Virus record (IMG/VR): IMGVR_UViG_3300049892_000014
Coordinates: 32,001 to 96,000 of that record
Strand: one strand, 5' to 3'
DNA length: 64,000 bases
Source: a virus
Taxonomy: Duplodnaviria; Caudoviricetes
Shown in pieces: positions 15,422-48,635 of this stretch. A program made the position numbers and the translations under genes. How positions within the stretch are numbered: position 1 is the first letter of the stretch; each line of letters begins with the position of its first letter. The notes under the pieces are model-generated. The model saw only the letters and a list, made by a program, of their open reading frames with translations. It ran no database searches and was not told where the DNA came from.

Positions 15422-15997
15422 TTAGAAGTCTAAATTCTTGTCTAGAAATTCCCTAGCTTCTTTGCCAAGTATCTCCTGCGACAGATAAGAGGTTGTTGAT
15501 GCTATAGACTTATGCCCAAGAAACGAAGAAGCTACCTGGATAGAAGTCGCTGAAGCTAATAGCATCGCCACAGACCTACGAAGTGTATGCGTTGAAGCGG
15601 CAGAACTATCCGTACCTTGTGGCATTAGTTTACTTAGTATGTACTTAAATAATTCATGACAATAGGTTCGTCCAATGGGCTTAGATGGATCTAGACCTGG
15701 AAAGAGATACTTACTTGTACCAACAACCGTAGGTAGGTATTTAATAATCCTCTCCCTAGTTGTATCGTTAATAGACCTCTCTACATACGATCCAGTCTTT
15801 TTCATCTTCCTTCTAATCGACGTGTAGACATTCCCATTCCGATCTACAACGTCCTCTATGAGCAGAGATTTCGCATCGCTAACCCTAAGACCGGTATTGC
15901 CCATAATCCTTAGCAGGACTTCGTCTCTTATAGACCTAGATCCAGCTATATCATACATCTTCTTAATCTGTGCTGCATCTAAAAATATCTTAGACAT
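15422..15997 (-). CDS. tyrosine recombinase (catalytic domain only)
   Basis: TGLRVSD, HTLRRS, LGHKSIASTTSY. Confidence 0.92.
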   Translation of the reverse strand: MSKIFLDAAQIKKMYDIAGSRSIRDEVLLRIMGNTGLRVSDAKSLLIEDVVDRNGNVYTSIRRKMKKTGSYVERSINDTTRERIIKYLPTVVGTSKYLFPGLDPSKPIGRTYCHELFKYILSKLMPQGTDSSAASTHTLRRSVAMLLASATSIQVASSFLGHKSIASTTSYLSQEILGKEAREFLDKNLDF

Positions 15998-38879: not shown

Positions 38880-38884
38880 AACTT

Positions 38885-39112
38885 ATGGGTGTATATGATA
38901 TTGAGATGGGAGTTGGCCCTCTAATGGAGTATATAATATTAGGAGCGCTTGACGGGTCAAAGAGACTAGAGGCTCAGGAGATAATGTCATACGTTCTATA
39001 TAGCATGTTTCATGGCGACCACATTCAGGCTGAAGACTGGTTTAAAACACATAACAGGGCTGACTATGAGAATGTCAGGCTCATGAGATCGTTGAGTAGA
39101 CATGCCAATTAA
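38885..39112 (+). CDS. hypothetical protein with shared C-terminal motif
   Basis: HNRADYENVRLMRSLS. Confidence 0.5.
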   Translation: MGVYDIEMGVGPLMEYIILGALDGSKRLEAQEIMSYVLYSMFHGDHIQAEDWFKTHNRADYENVRLMRSLSRHAN

Positions 39113-39467
39113 ATTACCGACAGTTGGATGGCACGACGTAAACACCAAGGAAATAATCCTTCGTGATAAGGGTGCGGTTACCTACCTGCCGTATGCTGTC
39201 TTTAAAAATGTGAAAGAGGTATGGCCTGATAGCGCAACTTACGCAATAGTAAATCGGTACGGGGAAACGCAGGGCCAACTATGGTTTACCCCTATAGATC
39301 TTGGCGATAATGTAAAGCTTAGCATGGAAACTTTTTGCCAGATGGTCCAGGATCAACAAGGTGGAACCGAATACAGCAGAGACGATTTAATCGGTTATCT
39401 GAAAGCCCTCCTGGAAGCAGATGTGGAGCTTTATAAATTAATGGTGAAAATGGGAAAATGGGATTGA
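39102..39467 (+). CDS. hypothetical protein with shared C-terminal motif
   Basis: LLEADVELYKLMVKMG. Confidence 0.6.
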   Translation: MPIKLPTVGWHDVNTKEIILRDKGAVTYLPYAVFKNVKEVWPDSATYAIVNRYGETQGQLWFTPIDLGDNVKLSMETFCQMVQDQQGGTEYSRDDLIGYLKALLEADVELYKLMVKMGKWD

Positions 39468-39492
39468 CAAGCTAATTTGACTGTGCTACTAT
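39464..39492 (+). promoter_or_regulatory. sigma70-type promoter
   Basis: TTGACA-17-TACTAT with TG. Confidence 0.8.
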
Positions 39493-39513: not shown

Positions 39514-39888
39514 ATGTGGCTGATGACGAAATACGGATTTTATTCTATAGTACAAAAACGACCTGGCATATATCATGTAAGGGCTAGGGAGGTGCATGAC
39601 TTGTATCACCTAATAGACTTCGTCCCTCTTCCAGGAAGAGAGGTTAGATTTACCGGTACTAATGATTATCTAGCCAGGCTGATTCTAAACAAGGAAGAGC
39701 TTGATAGAGTAATGACTTTCCTTAGCAATAACATTGATTACGACAACTTTAAAGATAAGATAGATAAGACTCCAGAGCAGAGACGCAAACCATACCACAA
39801 GATCTGGCAAGTATTAGCAGATGCTTTGGGAGCGTATGGTATGCCGCCTAAAAAAAATGGGGGTGAGAAAGTTTCGACAGCCGGATAA
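39514..39888 (+). CDS. conserved hypothetical protein
   Basis: MWLMTKYGFYSIVQK...VRARE...DY..R...IDYDNFK. Confidence 0.75.
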   Translation: MWLMTKYGFYSIVQKRPGIYHVRAREVHDLYHLIDFVPLPGREVRFTGTNDYLARLILNKEELDRVMTFLSNNIDYDNFKDKIDKTPEQRRKPYHKIWQVLADALGAYGMPPKKNGGEKVSTAG

Positions 39889-39941
39889 GTCCCTGCGGGG
39901 AACCTGGCTGGACCTGGGAGCGTTACCCAGCACCTCCACCA
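39859..39941 (+). ncRNA. minimal tmRNA-like RNA (tRNA-like domain only, no tag ORF)
   Basis: GGGGGTG/CACCTCC-ACCA acceptor with G3:U70, stemless D-loop ending TTCGAC, short helix 2, GGAC linker, 5-bp T stem. Confidence 0.8.
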
Positions 39942-39957
39942 AACTTAAGGAGATATT

Positions 39958-41107: not shown

Positions 41108-41458
41108 TTGAAGAACCTACTATTCAGCCTAACAGCTAAAGACTTTGAGTTCCAAACCTTCTGCACCGGAGGAAATGGTGGGCAGCATCGCAATGCTAAG
41201 CAGAACGGTGTTAGATGTATTCATCCAGATTCAGGAGCTAGAGCCGAGCATAGAGATGGACGTGACCAGAGAAAGAATAAGCAAGAGGCGTTTAGAAAGT
41301 GTTGTGAAACGCCTACTTTTAAGATATGGCACAAGCTTGAAGTTGCTAAAAGGCTCAGGCAACCAATACAAAAAACAGAAGAAGAAATTCAGAGATACGT
41401 AAACGAGCAGATGCAAGAAGGGAATTTAAAAATTGAAGAACTTGAAATTTCAGTTTGA
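41108..41458 (+). CDS. stand-alone GGQ peptidyl-tRNA hydrolase (RF-1 domain; ArfB/PrfH-like)
   Basis: FCTGGNGGQHRN...GVRCIHPDSG...RDQRKNKQEAF. Confidence 0.9.
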   Translation: MKNLLFSLTAKDFEFQTFCTGGNGGQHRNAKQNGVRCIHPDSGARAEHRDGRDQRKNKQEAFRKCCETPTFKIWHKLEVAKRLRQPIQKTEEEIQRYVNEQMQEGNLKIEELEISV

Positions 41459-42324: not shown

Positions 42325-42340
42325 AACTTATGGGGGAGAT

Positions 42341-44706: not shown

Positions 44707-45816
44707 ATGGCAAACGTAAAAGATGTTTTTTCGATAGAAGCTCTTGACGAACAAATAGAGCGTGGATTTGTGTCCAAACGTAAACATCCAGATCTCCCAC
44801 TGTATATATATAACTATACCCAGGAGGCTACGTTTGCCAATGAATGGAATGAAGTCACTATGACTTGTAGGGGGTTGATATTAGATGGAGACTATAATAT
44901 TATCGCTCGTCCTTTTAGGAAGTTTTTTAATCTGGAAACTGCTGGCCTTCCTGAGACGCAAATTAACAACCTTCCTAGGGACGTTAAACAAACTATAACC
45001 GAGAAGATGGATGGTTCTCTTGGAATTCTTTGGAGATATAAAGGCCACGAAGGCATAGCGACTAGAGGTTCCTTTACCTCTGAGCAGGCGATATGGGCAA
45101 CGAATCATTGGCGTACATTAATGTTTTTAAGATGGCACTTTGCATTCGACCGTGATACCACTCCTTTGTTCGAGATTATATATCCAGAGAATCGCATCGT
45201 TGTTGACTATAAGGGTGACAAGAAGCTTGTTCTGCTAGGAATTGTGAATAATGCAGATGGAACCGAATATTCCTATGACGAACTTAAATCCACTGGATAT
45301 CCCAATGTAGTCACGGTCTATGAAGGTAAATCTCTTTCCGATTGCGTATCTCAAGCTGAGACGGATTTACCTCTTAATAGGGAGGGGTATGTTGTAAGCT
45401 ATGATACTAAGCCAATGCCCCTTCGTATTAAAATTAAGTTTGACGAGTACCTCAGATTACATAGGCTTATCTTCAGCTTAAATGATCGGGTCATCTGGGA
45501 ATCTGTTAGCCAAGGCATTAATCCTAATGCTAATCTCGACTATGCTCCAGATGAAATCAGAGCATGGATAAAGAAATACACTCAGAAGTTTCTAAGTGAG
45601 TGCGAGAGAATTGCGTACACTGCCGAGGACGTGTTTAACCGGAGACCACGCAATGTCAGTAGGAAGGAAATTGCACAATGGTTTAGTATGTATCCAGAAG
45701 TAAAGAGTTCTTGCTTTGCGATGCTGGATAATAAAGATTACTTTCCTATCATATGGAAGATGCTTCGACCAAAACATGCAACACCTTTTAGGAGGGATGT
45801 GCCTGATGGAGAATAA
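44707..45816 (+). CDS. RNA ligase, T4 Rnl1-like
   Basis: CRGLIL, RPFRKFFN, TEKMDGSLGI, ATRGSF, FEII, REGYVV, KIKF. Confidence 0.93.
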   Translation: MANVKDVFSIEALDEQIERGFVSKRKHPDLPLYIYNYTQEATFANEWNEVTMTCRGLILDGDYNIIARPFRKFFNLETAGLPETQINNLPRDVKQTITEKMDGSLGILWRYKGHEGIATRGSFTSEQAIWATNHWRTLMFLRWHFAFDRDTTPLFEIIYPENRIVVDYKGDKKLVLLGIVNNADGTEYSYDELKSTGYPNVVTVYEGKSLSDCVSQAETDLPLNREGYVVSYDTKPMPLRIKIKFDEYLRLHRLIFSLNDRVIWESVSQGINPNANLDYAPDEIRAWIKKYTQKFLSECERIAYTAEDVFNRRPRNVSRKEIAQWFSMYPEVKSSCFAMLDNKDYFPIIWKMLRPKHATPFRRDVPDGE

Positions 45817-46882: not shown

Positions 46883-47551
46883 ATGGTTAGAAGCGATAGA
46901 GATCGTGAATATGATAAACGGTACAGAGAAGAACATAGAGAAGAGATTAGAGAGCGTGATCGTCGCTGGAGAGCGGAACACCTAGAGAGCATAAGGGAGA
47001 GTCAAAGGATATCTAATAGAAAATATGCAGAGAAAAACAGAGAATCCCTCAATGCTAAATCTAACAATCGCTACTGGAAAGACATTGAAGCTTCCAGGGC
47101 TAAAGGTAGGAAGTATGCCGCAAAGTATAGAGAAGAACACTTAGAAGCGGTCAGGGGGAGGGATCGTGAGCATTATGCTAAAAAAGGTGGTAAGGAGAAA
47201 ATGAGACAGTGGAGAGCGAAAGATCCAGAAGCAAGGAGGGAGAGGGATAGGGAATATGAGAAAAAAAATTACTCCTCTAGAAGAGATGGGAAGCTAAGGA
47301 GTAAATACAATATCTCACTATCAGACTACAGCGAGATGCTAGAAAAACAAAATGGAGCGTGTGCTATCTGCGGGATAGATCGAAATTTCCCAGGAAAGGG
47401 TAATAAGCTATTTGTGGATCACGATCATAAAACAGGCAAAGTTAGAGGGCTTCTGTGTAACAATTGCAACGCTCACCTTGGAATCCTAGAAAACGAAGCG
47501 TTTGTCAATAAGGCTAATGAGTACTTGGGTGGAGGAGAATATAATGTCTGA
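46883..47551 (+). CDS. endonuclease VII-like HNH (free-standing homing endonuclease)
   Basis: Repetitive R/E/Y helical N-terminus; QNGACAIC, VDHDHKTGKVRGLLCNNCN. Confidence 0.9.
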   Translation: MVRSDRDREYDKRYREEHREEIRERDRRWRAEHLESIRESQRISNRKYAEKNRESLNAKSNNRYWKDIEASRAKGRKYAAKYREEHLEAVRGRDREHYAKKGGKEKMRQWRAKDPEARRERDREYEKKNYSSRRDGKLRSKYNISLSDYSEMLEKQNGACAICGIDRNFPGKGNKLFVDHDHKTGKVRGLLCNNCNAHLGILENEAFVNKANEYLGGGEYNV

Positions 47552-48635
47552 ACATATATGTGAAGTAGTTCCAGTAGTACTAGAGAAACACGACAACGCT
47601 GACCTACTGTCTATTGTCCGTGTTCGTGGATGGCAGTGTGTCGTGAAGACTGCTGATTTTCAGAACCAGCCACTGGGTATATATATCCCAATCGACATGA
47701 TGATTCCAGATACACCTGAATGGGCGTGGATGGAAAGTAAGCGTGTCAAAACTCACAAGTTCCGTGGAGCAATCTCTCAGGGATTACTTATACCAGCGGC
47801 AAAGGGTATGCGTATCGGAGACGATGTAACGGCACAACTTGGTATCACTAGATACATACCAAAGATTCCTGGTAATAAAAGCAAGCTCCGTGGCGGTCAG
47901 TCTATCGCACCGCCTCCAGGTATGATTAAGTACACAGATATAGAGAACTGGAAGAACTACTCTCATATCTTTACTAATAAAGATCTAGTAGTGGTTACAG
48001 AGAAGATACATGGGGCCAATTCTAGGTTCGCCATACTGGACGGTAAGTTCTATACTGGATCTCACAACACTGTTCGGAAGCCTATTCCGCCAGAGCCGAC
48101 TAGTTGGTTTGGTAAGAAGATTCTTTCTTTAAAGCGAAAGATGGGCCTGGCTCCAATTAAGCGGACTCCAGATACATGGCAACAGGTAGCGGTGAATTAC
48201 GACATAGAGAATAAGATGCGCATGGCCTTTCACAATAAGCAGGACGTTATCTTATTCGGTGAAATCTACGGGCCTCATGTTCAGTCTAGTATGCCATACG
48301 GAGTTCCAGAAGGAGAGACTCATGTAGCGTTCTTTGATTGCTATACAGATGGACGCTATATGGGATGGAATGAATTCCAATCCAAAATGATCTCCATGGG
48401 TCTACCAACTGTCCCCCAGCTTAAAATCATGGCCTTCGGTCAAGATGTTATAGATATGGTAGATGGCAAGGCTTTTGCTGGTACTCATATCAGAGAGGGT
48501 ATTGTTGTAAAGCCTTGGCCGGATGAGCAGTTCGACAGCAGGCTTGGTCGTAAGGTTATTAAAATGATTAGCGACAAATATCTCTTGAAAGACTACGAGC
48601 AAGAGCCTGATGACGCTATTGACGTGGCTGAATAA
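47544..48635 (+). CDS. RNA ligase (DRB0094/Rnl2-like)
   Basis: HDNADLL, RGAISQGLL, TEKIHGAN, FGEIYG, FFD, REGIVVK. Confidence 0.92.
   Translation: MSEHICEVVPVVLEKHDNADLLSIVRVRGWQCVVKTADFQNQPLGIYIPIDMMIPDTPEWAWMESKRVKTHKFRGAISQGLLIPAAKGMRIGDDVTAQLGITRYIPKIPGNKSKLRGGQSIAPPPGMIKYTDIENWKNYSHIFTNKDLVVVTEKIHGANSRFAILDGKFYTGSHNTVRKPIPPEPTSWFGKKILSLKRKMGLAPIKRTPDTWQQVAVNYDIENKMRMAFHNKQDVILFGEIYGPHVQSSMPYGVPEGETHVAFFDCYTDGRYMGWNEFQSKMISMGLPTVPQLKIMAFGQDVIDMVDGKAFAGTHIREGIVVKPWPDEQFDSRLGRKVIKMISDKYLLKDYEQEPDDAIDVAE

What the first reader, a model, noticed from the sequence alone, without database searches (positions are those of the whole stretch)
39859..39941. 83-nt 'tagless' mini-tmRNA: an alanine-acceptor tRNA-like domain with no mRNA/tag domain
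Seen: 5' GGGGGUG-AGAAAGUUUCGAC and 3' GGAC-CUGGG(AGCGUUA)CCCAG-CACCUCC-ACCA. These reproduce the tmRNA tRNA-like domain: G3:U70 alanine identity pair, A73-CCA, stemless D-loop ending UUCGAC, and GAC before the T arm. Where tmRNA has a ~270-nt pseudoknot/tag region, this RNA has only a short hairpin (AGCCGG...CCUGGCU). It also shares the 3' trailer CCA-AACTTA with tRNA-Met and tRNA-Pro here, suggesting the same processing. Known: the TLD binds SmpB and EF-Tu, and tag-less tmRNAs are known from jakobid mitochondria. Inference: it may be an SmpB decoy that blocks host trans-translation, or an RNA that alanylates stalled peptides without a degradation tag.
Basis: partly seen in the sequence, partly recalled or inferred. 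Interest (0 to 1): 0.92.

Follow-up and report, generated by a model that had tools for sequence, protein, structure and literature searches.

The report
Phage tag-less mini-tmRNA gene
A freshwater phage carries a real 83-base gene that keeps only the alanine-accepting, tRNA-like end of the bacterial ribosome-rescue RNA (tmRNA) and has no tag message. One such phage RNA is published, and it probably steers rescue of stalled ribosomes away from protein tagging.

Summary
The stretch has a 7-bp acceptor stem with G3:U70, A73-CCA, a stemless D-loop ending UCGAC, a capped helix 2, GGAC and a 5-bp T arm. It has no tag frame and no pseudoknots.

ARAGORN calls nothing there. Rfam matches only the 3' half, below threshold, and best to the alphaproteobacterial two-piece tmRNA models.

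A covariance model built from 83 other viral mini-tmRNAs, with this one left out, scores it 64.5 bits over its full length. The published TLD-only RNA (TLD = tRNA-like domain) of mycobacteriophage DS6A scores 52.8 bits. The window's tRNAs score 28.5 bits or less.

The family is large. Helix 2 and the T stem covary strongly. G3:U70 and A73 are invariant, so alanine charging appears to be selected.

No second tmRNA piece and no SmpB were found in the 105-kb record, which is 82% complete.

A stand-alone GGQ peptidyl-tRNA hydrolase gene lies 1.17 kb downstream on the same strand.

Verdict: a new member of a known, under-annotated kind. It stands out for its alphaproteobacterial-type T loop in an unpermuted gene. 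This scan has found the same kind before in other phages. Function is inferred, not shown.

The parts
39859..39941 (+). whole TLD-only mini-tmRNA gene (83 nt, CCA encoded)
   Evidence: Sequence; fold; leave-one-out model R1 gives 64.5 bits, E 1.6e-11, model positions 1-77 of 77.
39859..39865 (+). acceptor stem, 5' strand GGGGGUG (G3 of the G3:U70 pair)
   Evidence: Pairs with 39931-39937. G3:U70 is invariant in the family: scans for non-U70 variants found only chance matches.
39866..39878 (+). stemless D-loop AGAAAGUUUCGAC
   Evidence: Same length and same UCGAC ending as alphaproteobacterial tmRNA D-loops seen.
39879..39909 (+). helix 2, capped: outer helix AGCCGG/CUGGCU, 5' loop AUAAG, inner hairpin UCCC-UGCG-GGGA, 3' loop AC
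   Evidence: Fold. All six pairs of the outer helix covary across 85 sequences. The same architecture recurs in unrelated minis of 78 nt or more.
39910..39913 (+). GGAC linker before the T arm
   Evidence: Sequence. Aligned to the GGAC of alpha_tmRNA and tmRNA_permuted.
39914..39930 (+). T arm CUGGG-AGCGUUA-CCCAG with an alphaproteobacterial-like T loop (xGCGxUA)
   Evidence: Rfam alignment to alpha_tmRNA. T-stem cells are 100% paired and 4 of 5 pairs covary. Host T loops are GGCGGUA or GGCAGUA in sampled Alphaproteobacteria.
39931..39941 (+). acceptor 3' strand CACCUCC, discriminator A73 and CCA
   Evidence: Sequence. A73 is invariant in the family: the scan for non-A73 variants found only a chance match.
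39942..39947 (+). 3' trailer AACTTA, shared with tRNA-Met and tRNA-Pro
39464..39492 (+). promoter-like site TTGACA-17-TACTAT with an extended TG, upstream of the ORF and the RNA
   Evidence: Consensus scan only. The count of such sites is not above shuffles, so this is weak.
39514..39888 (+). upstream conserved ORF (124 aa). Its last 10 codons and its stop codon lie inside the RNA gene.
   Evidence: 185 homologs of 113-122 aa. Conservation ends at residue 109, nt 39840.
41108..41458 (+). stand-alone GGQ (RF-1 domain) peptidyl-tRNA hydrolase-like gene, a possible partner
   Evidence: PF00472 38.7 bits; motif GGNGGQHRN; PHROG 3122 E 3e-19; prfH C-domain and RF1/RF2 GGQ domain. A link to the RNA is inferred from proximity only.

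Best explanation
This is a functional phage gene for a TLD-only (tag-less) tmRNA.

Proposed steps, all inferred:
1. It is transcribed with the neighbouring genes.
2. It is cut out like the phage's tRNAs, by RNase P at G1, with the CCA already encoded.
3. The host alanyl-tRNA synthetase charges it with alanine through G3:U70 and A73.
4. Host SmpB and EF-Tu bind it.
5. It competes with host tmRNA for ribosomes stalled on broken messages.

Because it has no resume codon or tag frame, the outcome is rescue or occupation of stalled ribosomes without the ssrA degradation tag. The peptidyl-Ala-RNA would then be resolved by a stop-codon-independent hydrolase. In this phage a GGQ-domain protein is encoded 1.17 kb downstream. 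In other phages the host's ArfB or Pth would have to do this.

Shown here: the gene's anatomy, its family membership, covariation, invariance of the alanine identity elements, absence of a tag piece in the DNA held, and the nearby GGQ gene.

Not shown here: transcription, charging, SmpB binding and the effect on tagging.
For: Anatomy of a complete TLD.

The 3' half aligns to the alpha_tmRNA and tmRNA_permuted models.

The leave-one-out covariance model gives 64.5 bits. The published DS6A TLD-only RNA gives 52.8 bits, and the window's tRNAs give 28.5 bits or less.

The family has more than 119 viral contigs and 86 distinct sequences.
- 95.8% of cells are paired, against 72.7% in shuffles.
- The covariation score is 0.617, against 0.151 in shuffles and 0.13 or less in slid controls.
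- All helix 2 pairs and 4 of 5 T-stem pairs show double changes.

Scans for variants without U70 or without A73 found only 3 loci, all chance matches without a T stem. More than 119 loci carry both elements. This argues that charging is selected, not merely SmpB binding.

The CCA is encoded, as in the nine phage tRNAs checked, and the trailer is shared with two of them.

No tag piece and no SmpB were found in the record.

A GGQ hydrolase gene lies 1.17 kb downstream on the same strand.

Literature: a DS6A-like TLD-only RNA inhibits tmRNA in E. coli (PMC4131195 and PMC11915505, both citing Mao et al. 2009). Tag-less mitochondrial tmRNAs are thought to free stalled ribosomes (PMC3590771).
Against: There is no evidence of expression, because no RNA run holds the stretch.

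The host is unknown, so AlaRS and SmpB compatibility is assumed.

As cited in PMC4131195, the published inhibition worked whether or not the RNA could be charged. That fits a simple SmpB sponge as well.

The GGQ gene is not a general partner. It was absent from 29 other mini-bearing contigs of 20 kb or more. No mini lies within 10 kb of 35 GGQ homologs.

The GGQ protein's C-terminal region looks acidic on inspection of the translation, unlike the basic tail I recall for ArfB; this was not computed.

The T loop AGCGUUA was not seen among the listed tmRNAs of the sampled alphaproteobacterial genomes.

Invariance of GGGG, UCGAC, GGAC and CCA in my family set is built into the search pattern.
Confidence: 0.5

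Rival explanations
1. Pure SmpB sponge. The RNA only sequesters host SmpB and so shuts down trans-translation. It does not need to be charged or to enter the ribosome.
For: PMC4131195, citing Mao et al. [quoted passage not shown] The SmpB-contacting parts (D-loop UCGAC, GGAC, T arm) are intact.
Against: G3:U70 and A73 are invariant across 86 distinct and otherwise diverged sequences. No true variant without them was found. A sponge that need not be charged should tolerate G3:C70.
Confidence: 0.25
2. Acceptor part of a split tmRNA whose tag-encoding piece lies elsewhere in the genome.
For: The T loop is of the alphaproteobacterial two-piece type. The record is only 82% complete. Related tRNA-rich phages carry permuted tmRNAs.
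Against: Both acceptor strands are present in normal order, closed by a capped helix 2, so no strand is left for a second piece to pair with. ARAGORN, three Rfam tmRNA models and motif searches found no other piece in 105 kb. RBS-like GGAG and the start of the next ORF follow the CCA at once.
Confidence: 0.04
3. Integration-site (attP) copy of the host ssrA 3' end, or a decaying tmRNA or tRNA remnant with no RNA function.
For: Phages often integrate into ssrA. A tyrosine-recombinase domain is encoded at window 15479-15985. Other contigs of the same water samples carry a 33-nt stretch that is 30/33 identical to the 3' half.
Against: The recombinase is 24 kb away. An attP copy would not need the 5' strand, the D-loop or a covarying closed helix 2. 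All helices are intact, the family shows compensatory changes, and the model score is high.
Confidence: 0.05
4. An alanine-charged tRNA-like RNA used outside ribosome rescue. Possible roles are as an alanyl donor for a transferase, or as a processing or punctuation signal for the flanking mRNAs.
For: Alanine identity is conserved. The element is embedded between ORFs and shares its trailer with two tRNAs. The stop codon of the upstream ORF lies inside it.
Against: The tmRNA-specific UCGAC and GGAC motifs and the tmRNA-type T loop are kept, and neither role would need them. No aminoacyl-transferase gene was found beside it. No common neighbour exists across the family.
Confidence: 0.06

Closest known systems
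TLD-only (CDS-less) tmRNA of mycobacteriophage DS6A (JN698994, 28478-28560; PMC4131195, PMC11915505, both citing Mao et al. 2009)
   Same: It is phage-encoded and contiguous, about 80 nt long. It has an acceptor stem with G3:U70, a stemless D-loop, a short capped helix 2 and a T arm, and no tag frame. The same covariance model finds both RNAs (52.8 and 64.5 bits). It is unannotated in its record.
   Different: DS6A has a standard UUCGAUU T loop and no encoded CCA; it is recorded on an actinobacterial host, and I recall it as temperate. This RNA has an alphaproteobacterial-like T loop (AGCGUUA) and an encoded CCA. It sits in an unrelated freshwater phage of about 105 kb or more with 10 tRNAs.
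Alphaproteobacterial two-piece (circularly permuted) tmRNA, Rfam RF01849 and RF04321, including the copies carried by pelagiphage-like phages (PMC9004378)
   Same: The T loop is of the type xGCGxUA, with GGAC before the T arm. The D-loop has the same length and ending. The 3' half differs at only two T-loop positions from the acceptor pieces of viral contigs L009, L044 and L058 and of one sampled alphaproteobacterial genome.
   Different: Those genes are permuted, mature in two pieces, and encode a tag (ANDN...ALAA). This gene is in the standard order, in one piece, and has no tag.
Mitochondrial tag-less tmRNA of jakobids, especially the contiguous Jakoba libera form (PMC3590771); Rfam RF02544
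   Same: It descends from the alphaproteobacterial type, has lost the mRNA-like domain, and keeps G3:U70 and A73. J. libera shows that a permuted form can revert to a contiguous one.
   Different: It is organellar, not viral. The Rfam mt-tmRNA model gives no match here, so there is no direct relationship.
ArfB/ICT1 and PrfH stop-codon-independent GGQ rescue factors (compared with the neighbouring gene at 41108-41458)
   Same: A GGQ peptidyl-tRNA hydrolase domain without codon-reading domains.
   Different: It has 116 aa. Its C-terminal region looks acidic on inspection of the translation, unlike the basic tail I recall for ArfB; this was not computed. It is a phage family (PHROG 3122) embedded in tRNA clusters.

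Membership tests
tmRNA (SsrA; RF00023, RF01849, RF04321) | tRNA-like domain: 7-bp acceptor stem with G3:U70, A73-CCA, stemless D-loop ending UCGAC, GGAC, 5-bp T arm | tested here: met
tmRNA (SsrA; RF00023, RF01849, RF04321) | mRNA-like domain with a resume codon and a tag reading frame ending in a stop | tested here: not met
   Only 31 nt lie between the D-loop and GGAC. ARAGORN finds no tmRNA.
tmRNA (SsrA; RF00023, RF01849, RF04321) | pseudoknots, and a curated Rfam score at or above the gathering threshold | tested here: not met
   Best scores are 21.9 and 24.6 bits against thresholds of 50 and 47. No match at gathering threshold.
Two-piece tmRNA | a separate coding piece elsewhere that pairs with the acceptor piece | tested here: not met
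   None found in the 105-kb record. The record is 82% complete, so absence is not proven.
Phage TLD-only (CDS-less) tmRNA, DS6A type | contiguous gene of about 60-90 nt made only of the TLD plus a capped helix 2 | tested here: met
Phage TLD-only (CDS-less) tmRNA, DS6A type | recognised by a sequence-and-structure model built from other members | tested here: met
   R1 was built without this sequence. It gives 64.5 bits, E 1.6e-11, over the full length. DS6A gives 52.8 bits and tRNAs 28.5 bits or less.
Phage TLD-only (CDS-less) tmRNA, DS6A type | encoded by a phage | tested here: met
   Virus record. Terminase, portal and major head protein are present.
Phage TLD-only (CDS-less) tmRNA, DS6A type | alanylation, SmpB binding, and inhibition of host tmRNA | not testable with these tools
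   Known for a DS6A-like molecule only through citation (PMC4131195, PMC11915505).
mt-tmRNA (RF02544) | match to the curated model | tested here: not met
   No match at E of 10 or less.
tRNA (RF00005) | D stem, and an anticodon arm with a 7-nt loop | tested here: not met
   Not called by ARAGORN or by Rfam at gathering threshold. The helix in that position carries an internal loop and a tetraloop.

The most novel reading that the evidence does not exclude
The TLD-only RNA and the phage's own GGQ hydrolase, with host SmpB, EF-Tu and AlaRS, form a two-part, tag-free ribosome-rescue system. Ala-TLD takes the nascent chain from a ribosome stalled on a broken phage message. The GGQ protein then releases it, so phage proteins escape ssrA-directed degradation. 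The system sits in a wider translation-repair module with the tRNAs and two RNA ligases. A twist specific to this locus: excising the RNA would remove the stop codon of the upstream gene, making that message a built-in client.
Probability: 0.15. Interest if true: 0.75.

Novelty: new member of a known kind. Interest (0 to 1): 0.45.

Why it matters
Tag-less tmRNAs in phages are known in the literature from a single example (DS6A). Standard annotation tools (ARAGORN, Rfam) do not call them.

This case, and the family recovered around it, show three things:
- These RNAs are common and diverse in uncultured phages.
- They are almost confined to viruses. About 10 true cases were found among 185,579 bacterial and archaeal species genomes, against more than 119 viral contigs.
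- They keep the alanine identity elements strictly.

That points to a widespread phage strategy aimed at the host's ribosome-rescue and protein-tagging pathway. The strategy is easy to test with a small synthetic RNA. For this particular locus the added value is modest: a new lineage, with an alphaproteobacterial-type T loop in an unpermuted gene, and a suggestive GGQ neighbour.

Tried and rejected
- **Close relatives of the phage.** Megablast of 2 kb against 50,697 phage records found nothing. The major head protein gave one 25% match. The SLT protein found no relatives in viral contigs. An exact look-up of the head protein found nothing. No sister phage was available to show whether the site once held a full-length gene.
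- **Homologs of the upstream ORF.** They lie in unrelated, mostly bacterial contexts with no tmRNA-like neighbour.
- **RNA evidence.** No RNA holder is listed for the stretch. The laid runs were DNA contigs only.
- **Second tmRNA piece.** Weak alpha_tmRNA matches at G000 101587-101780 and 101420-101488 lie in a tail-fibre-like coding region and were rejected. Low-threshold ARAGORN 'tmRNAs' all lie in coding sequence with nonsense tags.
- **Common neighbour genes.** Clustering the genes around 120 mini loci gave only lineage-specific synteny. The top clusters had no informative Pfam family beyond HNH and PD-(D/E)XK.
- **GGQ as a general partner.** It was absent from 29 other mini-bearing contigs. 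The model hits near 35 GGQ homologs were ordinary tRNAs. The alpha_tmRNA hits in those phages are acceptor pieces of permuted genes, not minis.
- **Host assignment from the T loop.** A Lentisphaeria/Victivallales mini has AUCGUUA. The one genome whose acceptor piece is nearest (G107) has 31% GC against the phage's 42%. The host is left open.
- **Bacterial genomes.** Most of the 73 genome contigs pattern hits were chance matches in GC-rich coding DNA or 3' ends of ordinary tmRNAs.
- **Papers not held.** Mao et al. 2009, Hafez et al. 2013 and Keiler et al. 2000 could not be read. They are cited only through papers that I could read.

Full report
**What is there.** The window is bases 32001-96000 of a linear IMG/VR virus record of 104,912 bp. 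The record is about 82% complete with 42% GC. It has terminase, portal and major head genes and ten tRNA genes. Public runs that hold the stretch are freshwater and freshwater-sediment metagenomes.

- Acceptor stem GGGGGUG/CACCUCC with G3:U70.
- A73-CCA.
- A stemless 13-nt D region ending UCGAC.
- An outer helix AGCCGG/CUGGCU that encloses AUAAG, a UCCC-UGCG-GGGA hairpin and AC.
- GGAC.
- A T arm CUGGG-AGCGUUA-CCCAG.

The minimum-free-energy fold gives exactly this shape (-35.9 kcal/mol, z = -1.9). The composite pattern is found once in the window and never in 100 shuffles. The element has 63% GC in a 42% genome. It is identical in a contig from a second sample and study.

**What the standard tools say.** ARAGORN reports no tRNA or tmRNA here, in the window or in the whole record. 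Rfam at gathering thresholds finds only the true tRNAs. With permissive thresholds only the 3' half matches: alpha_tmRNA at 21.9 bits and tmRNA_permuted at 24.6 bits, both far below their cut-offs. The mitochondrial tmRNA model gives nothing. The alpha_tmRNA alignment shows why. The T loop AGCGUUA follows the unusual alphaproteobacterial consensus (GGCGGUA), not the universal UUCGAAU.

**Is a second piece hidden elsewhere?** Alphaproteobacterial tmRNA genes are permuted and mature in two pieces, so this had to be tested. Here both acceptor strands stand in the normal order, joined by a closed helix. An RBS-like GGAG and the start of the next ORF follow the CCA directly. Three Rfam tmRNA models, ARAGORN and motif searches over the whole record found no other 5' or 3' half and no tag frame. 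The weak matches lie in coding sequence. The record also lacks SmpB. The missing 18% of the genome leaves a small doubt.

**The family.** A gapped pattern for a one-piece TLD was scanned over viral contigs. The pattern was GGGG, 10-13 nt, TCGAC, 6-36 nt, GGAC, 19 nt, CCTCCACCA. These give 86 distinct sequences of 60-88 nt with a fully paired acceptor stem.

In an alignment of 85 sequences, structure counts were as follows:
- 95.8% of cells pair, against 72.7% in shuffles.
- All six pairs of helix 2 show changes on both sides.
- Four of five T-stem pairs show changes on both sides.
- The T-stem cells are 100% paired.
- The covariation score is 0.617, against 0.151 in shuffles and at most 0.13 when partners are slid.

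Helix 2 and the T stem were not constrained by the pattern. The acceptor end, UCGAC, GGAC and CCA were, so their invariance in this set is by construction.

A covariance model built from 83 of these sequences, without the window's, finds 39859-39941 at 64.5 bits (E 1.6e-11) over the full model. It finds the unannotated DS6A TLD-only RNA at 52.8 bits. The window's tRNAs score 28.5 bits or less.

Minis of 78 nt or more, from unrelated contigs, share the window's helix 2 layout. This is an outer helix, a purine-rich 5' loop (UAAG, GAAAG), a 3-4 bp inner hairpin and a 2-3 nt 3' loop.

The same pattern over one genome of each of 185,579 bacterial and archaeal species gave 73 hits, but only about ten are true minis. 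Some of those lie on short or phage-like contigs. The kind is therefore overwhelmingly viral. Most viral examples stand alone, with no tRNA gene in the flanks fetched.

**Alphaproteobacterial flavour.** Fourteen viral loci carry a one-piece mini with a T loop of the form NGCNNNA.
- Twelve are a 69-nt form: GGGGGUG, UAAAAGAAUUCGAC, a UUCG-capped stub, GGAC, and a CCGGG-CGCGAUA-CCCGG T arm. This form is followed by an intrinsic terminator.
- One is an 81-nt form (L176).
- The window's own record was left out of these searches.

The window's 3' half differs at only two T-loop positions from the acceptor pieces of permuted tmRNA genes on viral contigs L009, L044 and L058, and of one sampled alphaproteobacterial genome.

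About 72 of the 120 viral loci with an alphaproteobacterial-type 3' half are complete two-piece tmRNAs with ANDN...ALAA tags. This agrees with the report of two-piece tmRNAs in marine phages (PMC9004378).

A one-piece, tag-less gene of alphaproteobacterial type needs a re-permutation as well as a deletion. The only precedent I found is the contiguous mitochondrial tmRNA of Jakoba libera (PMC3590771).

The host is not settled. AGCGUUA itself was not among the listed T loops of 401 sampled alphaproteobacterial genomes. A Lentisphaeria mini has AUCGUUA.

**Does charging matter?** I scanned viral contigs for the same pattern with any base but U at position 70, and with any base but A at position 73. 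These gave 2 and 1 loci, and all three are chance matches without a T stem. More than 119 loci carry G3:U70 and A73. A G-U pair would be expected to drift to G-C if only the shape mattered. I read this as selection for alanylation. It favours a molecule that reaches the ribosome with EF-Tu over a passive SmpB sponge.

The published observation, known to me only through PMC4131195 and PMC11915505, is that a DS6A-like TLD-only RNA inhibits tmRNA in E. coli whether or not it can be charged. Both readings therefore stay open. I give the charged-competitor reading 0.5 and the pure sponge 0.25.

**Surroundings.**
- The upstream ORF (39514-39888) belongs to a real protein family of about 115 aa with 185 homologs, mostly in bacterial chromosomes. 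Conservation ends at residue 109 (nt 39840). The last ten codons and the stop codon lie inside the RNA gene.
- A promoter-like site lies at 39464-39492. Such sites are not enriched over shuffles.
- The trailer CCA-AACTTA is shared with tRNA-Met and tRNA-Pro. The nine tRNAs checked all encode CCA. This fits common processing.
- Downstream lie an SLT transglycosylase, a SLOG-family gene and an exonuclease.
- At 41108-41458 there is a 116-aa protein made of little more than the GGQ peptidyl-tRNA hydrolase domain of release factors. Evidence: PF00472 at 38.7 bits, motif GGNGGQHRN, PHROG 3122 at E 3e-19, and best extended match to the C-domain of PrfH.
- After the tRNA cluster come Rnl1-like and Rnl2-like RNA ligases.

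The GGQ gene could supply the release step that a tag-less tmRNA lacks, but the link rests on proximity alone. It is absent from 29 other mini-bearing contigs. None of 35 loci with GGQ homologs (57-87% identical, in otherwise unrelated phages) has a mini within 10 kb. Those homologs do sit in tRNA clusters. Nine of 34 of their contigs carry tmRNA-like matches. In L329 and L330 a permuted tmRNA lies about 0.9 kb upstream of the GGQ gene.

**Comparison and novelty.** The closest known thing is the TLD-only tmRNA of mycobacteriophage DS6A, listed in 2014 and again in 2025 as the only phage case. Full-text searches found no paper describing such RNAs widely in phages. Earlier reports of this scan describe the same kind in a T7-like phage, a freshwater phage, a rumen phage and a jumbo phage. 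The scan has therefore found this before, on other DNA.

This locus is a new member of a known kind. Its particular features are the alphaproteobacterial-type T loop in an unpermuted gene, the overlap with the upstream gene's stop codon, and the nearby GGQ gene.

**Verdict.** Function is inferred. Interest is moderate.

Noticed in passing
window 41108-41458 (+); loci L324-L358: A stand-alone 116-aa GGQ (RF-1 domain) protein. Homologs at 57-87% identity occur in 35 otherwise unrelated large phage contigs, most of them (about 24 of 35) with tRNA genes within 10 kb, some with 20-38. It looks like a mobile companion gene of tRNA clusters.
   Followed up: partly
window 44707-45816 (+) and 47502-48635 (+): Rnl1-like and Rnl2-like RNA ligase genes lie directly after the tRNA cluster, which suggests a tRNA or RNA repair module. 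Homologs of the ORFs at window 44698 and 46823 also lie near the GGQ gene in several other phages.
   Followed up: no
window 39886-39888 within 39859-39941: The stop codon of the conserved upstream ORF lies inside the RNA gene. Cutting the RNA out at G39859 would leave that message without a stop codon, making it a natural substrate for ribosome rescue.
   Followed up: partly
window 38880-38885, 39942-39947, 42325-42330: tRNA-Met, the mini-tmRNA and tRNA-Pro share the trailer AACTTA. Met and Pro share AACTTATGGG. In each case an ORF start follows closely. This may be a repeated tRNA-plus-ORF junction.
   Followed up: no
loci L067, L070, L101, L103; also L009, L014, L024, L028, L046, L050, L092, L099, L100, L104, L107, L120: Phage permuted tmRNA genes with strong sigma-70-like promoters. 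Their intervening segment holds small ORFs or long hairpins, or their acceptor piece is followed only by an ORF within the 700 nt examined. The phage copies often have a UGCGAUA T loop, which is not seen among the listed host genomes.
   Followed up: no
window 15479-15985 (-): A tyrosine recombinase (Phage_integrase domain, 69.5 bits) in an open frame of about 195 aa. The phage may be temperate, or the enzyme may resolve dimers.
   Followed up: no
window 39514-39840 (+); P0002-P0120: A conserved protein family of about 115 aa with no Pfam or PHROG match. It is widespread in bacterial genomes in varied contexts (beside yidC/rnpA in one, beside SRAP and SNase genes in another) and has been picked up by this phage.
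   Followed up: partly
window 39909-39941, runs X2 and X3: Other contigs of the same freshwater samples match only these 33 nt, with 3 differences and unrelated flanks. They are probably acceptor pieces of alphaproteobacterial-type tmRNAs of another phage or of a candidate host.
   Followed up: no
L326, L327, L347: ARAGORN calls tRNAs with a CUA anticodon (amber suppressors) in tRNA clusters beside the GGQ gene, a hint of stop-codon reassignment or suppression in those phages.
   Followed up: no
L254, L281 (Saccharibacteria); L269, L287 (Victivallales/Lentisphaeria); L251, L295, L309, L311: A few true one-piece minis occur on contigs assigned to bacterial genomes. Whether these are prophages, binned phage contigs or cellular genes was not examined.
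   Followed up: no
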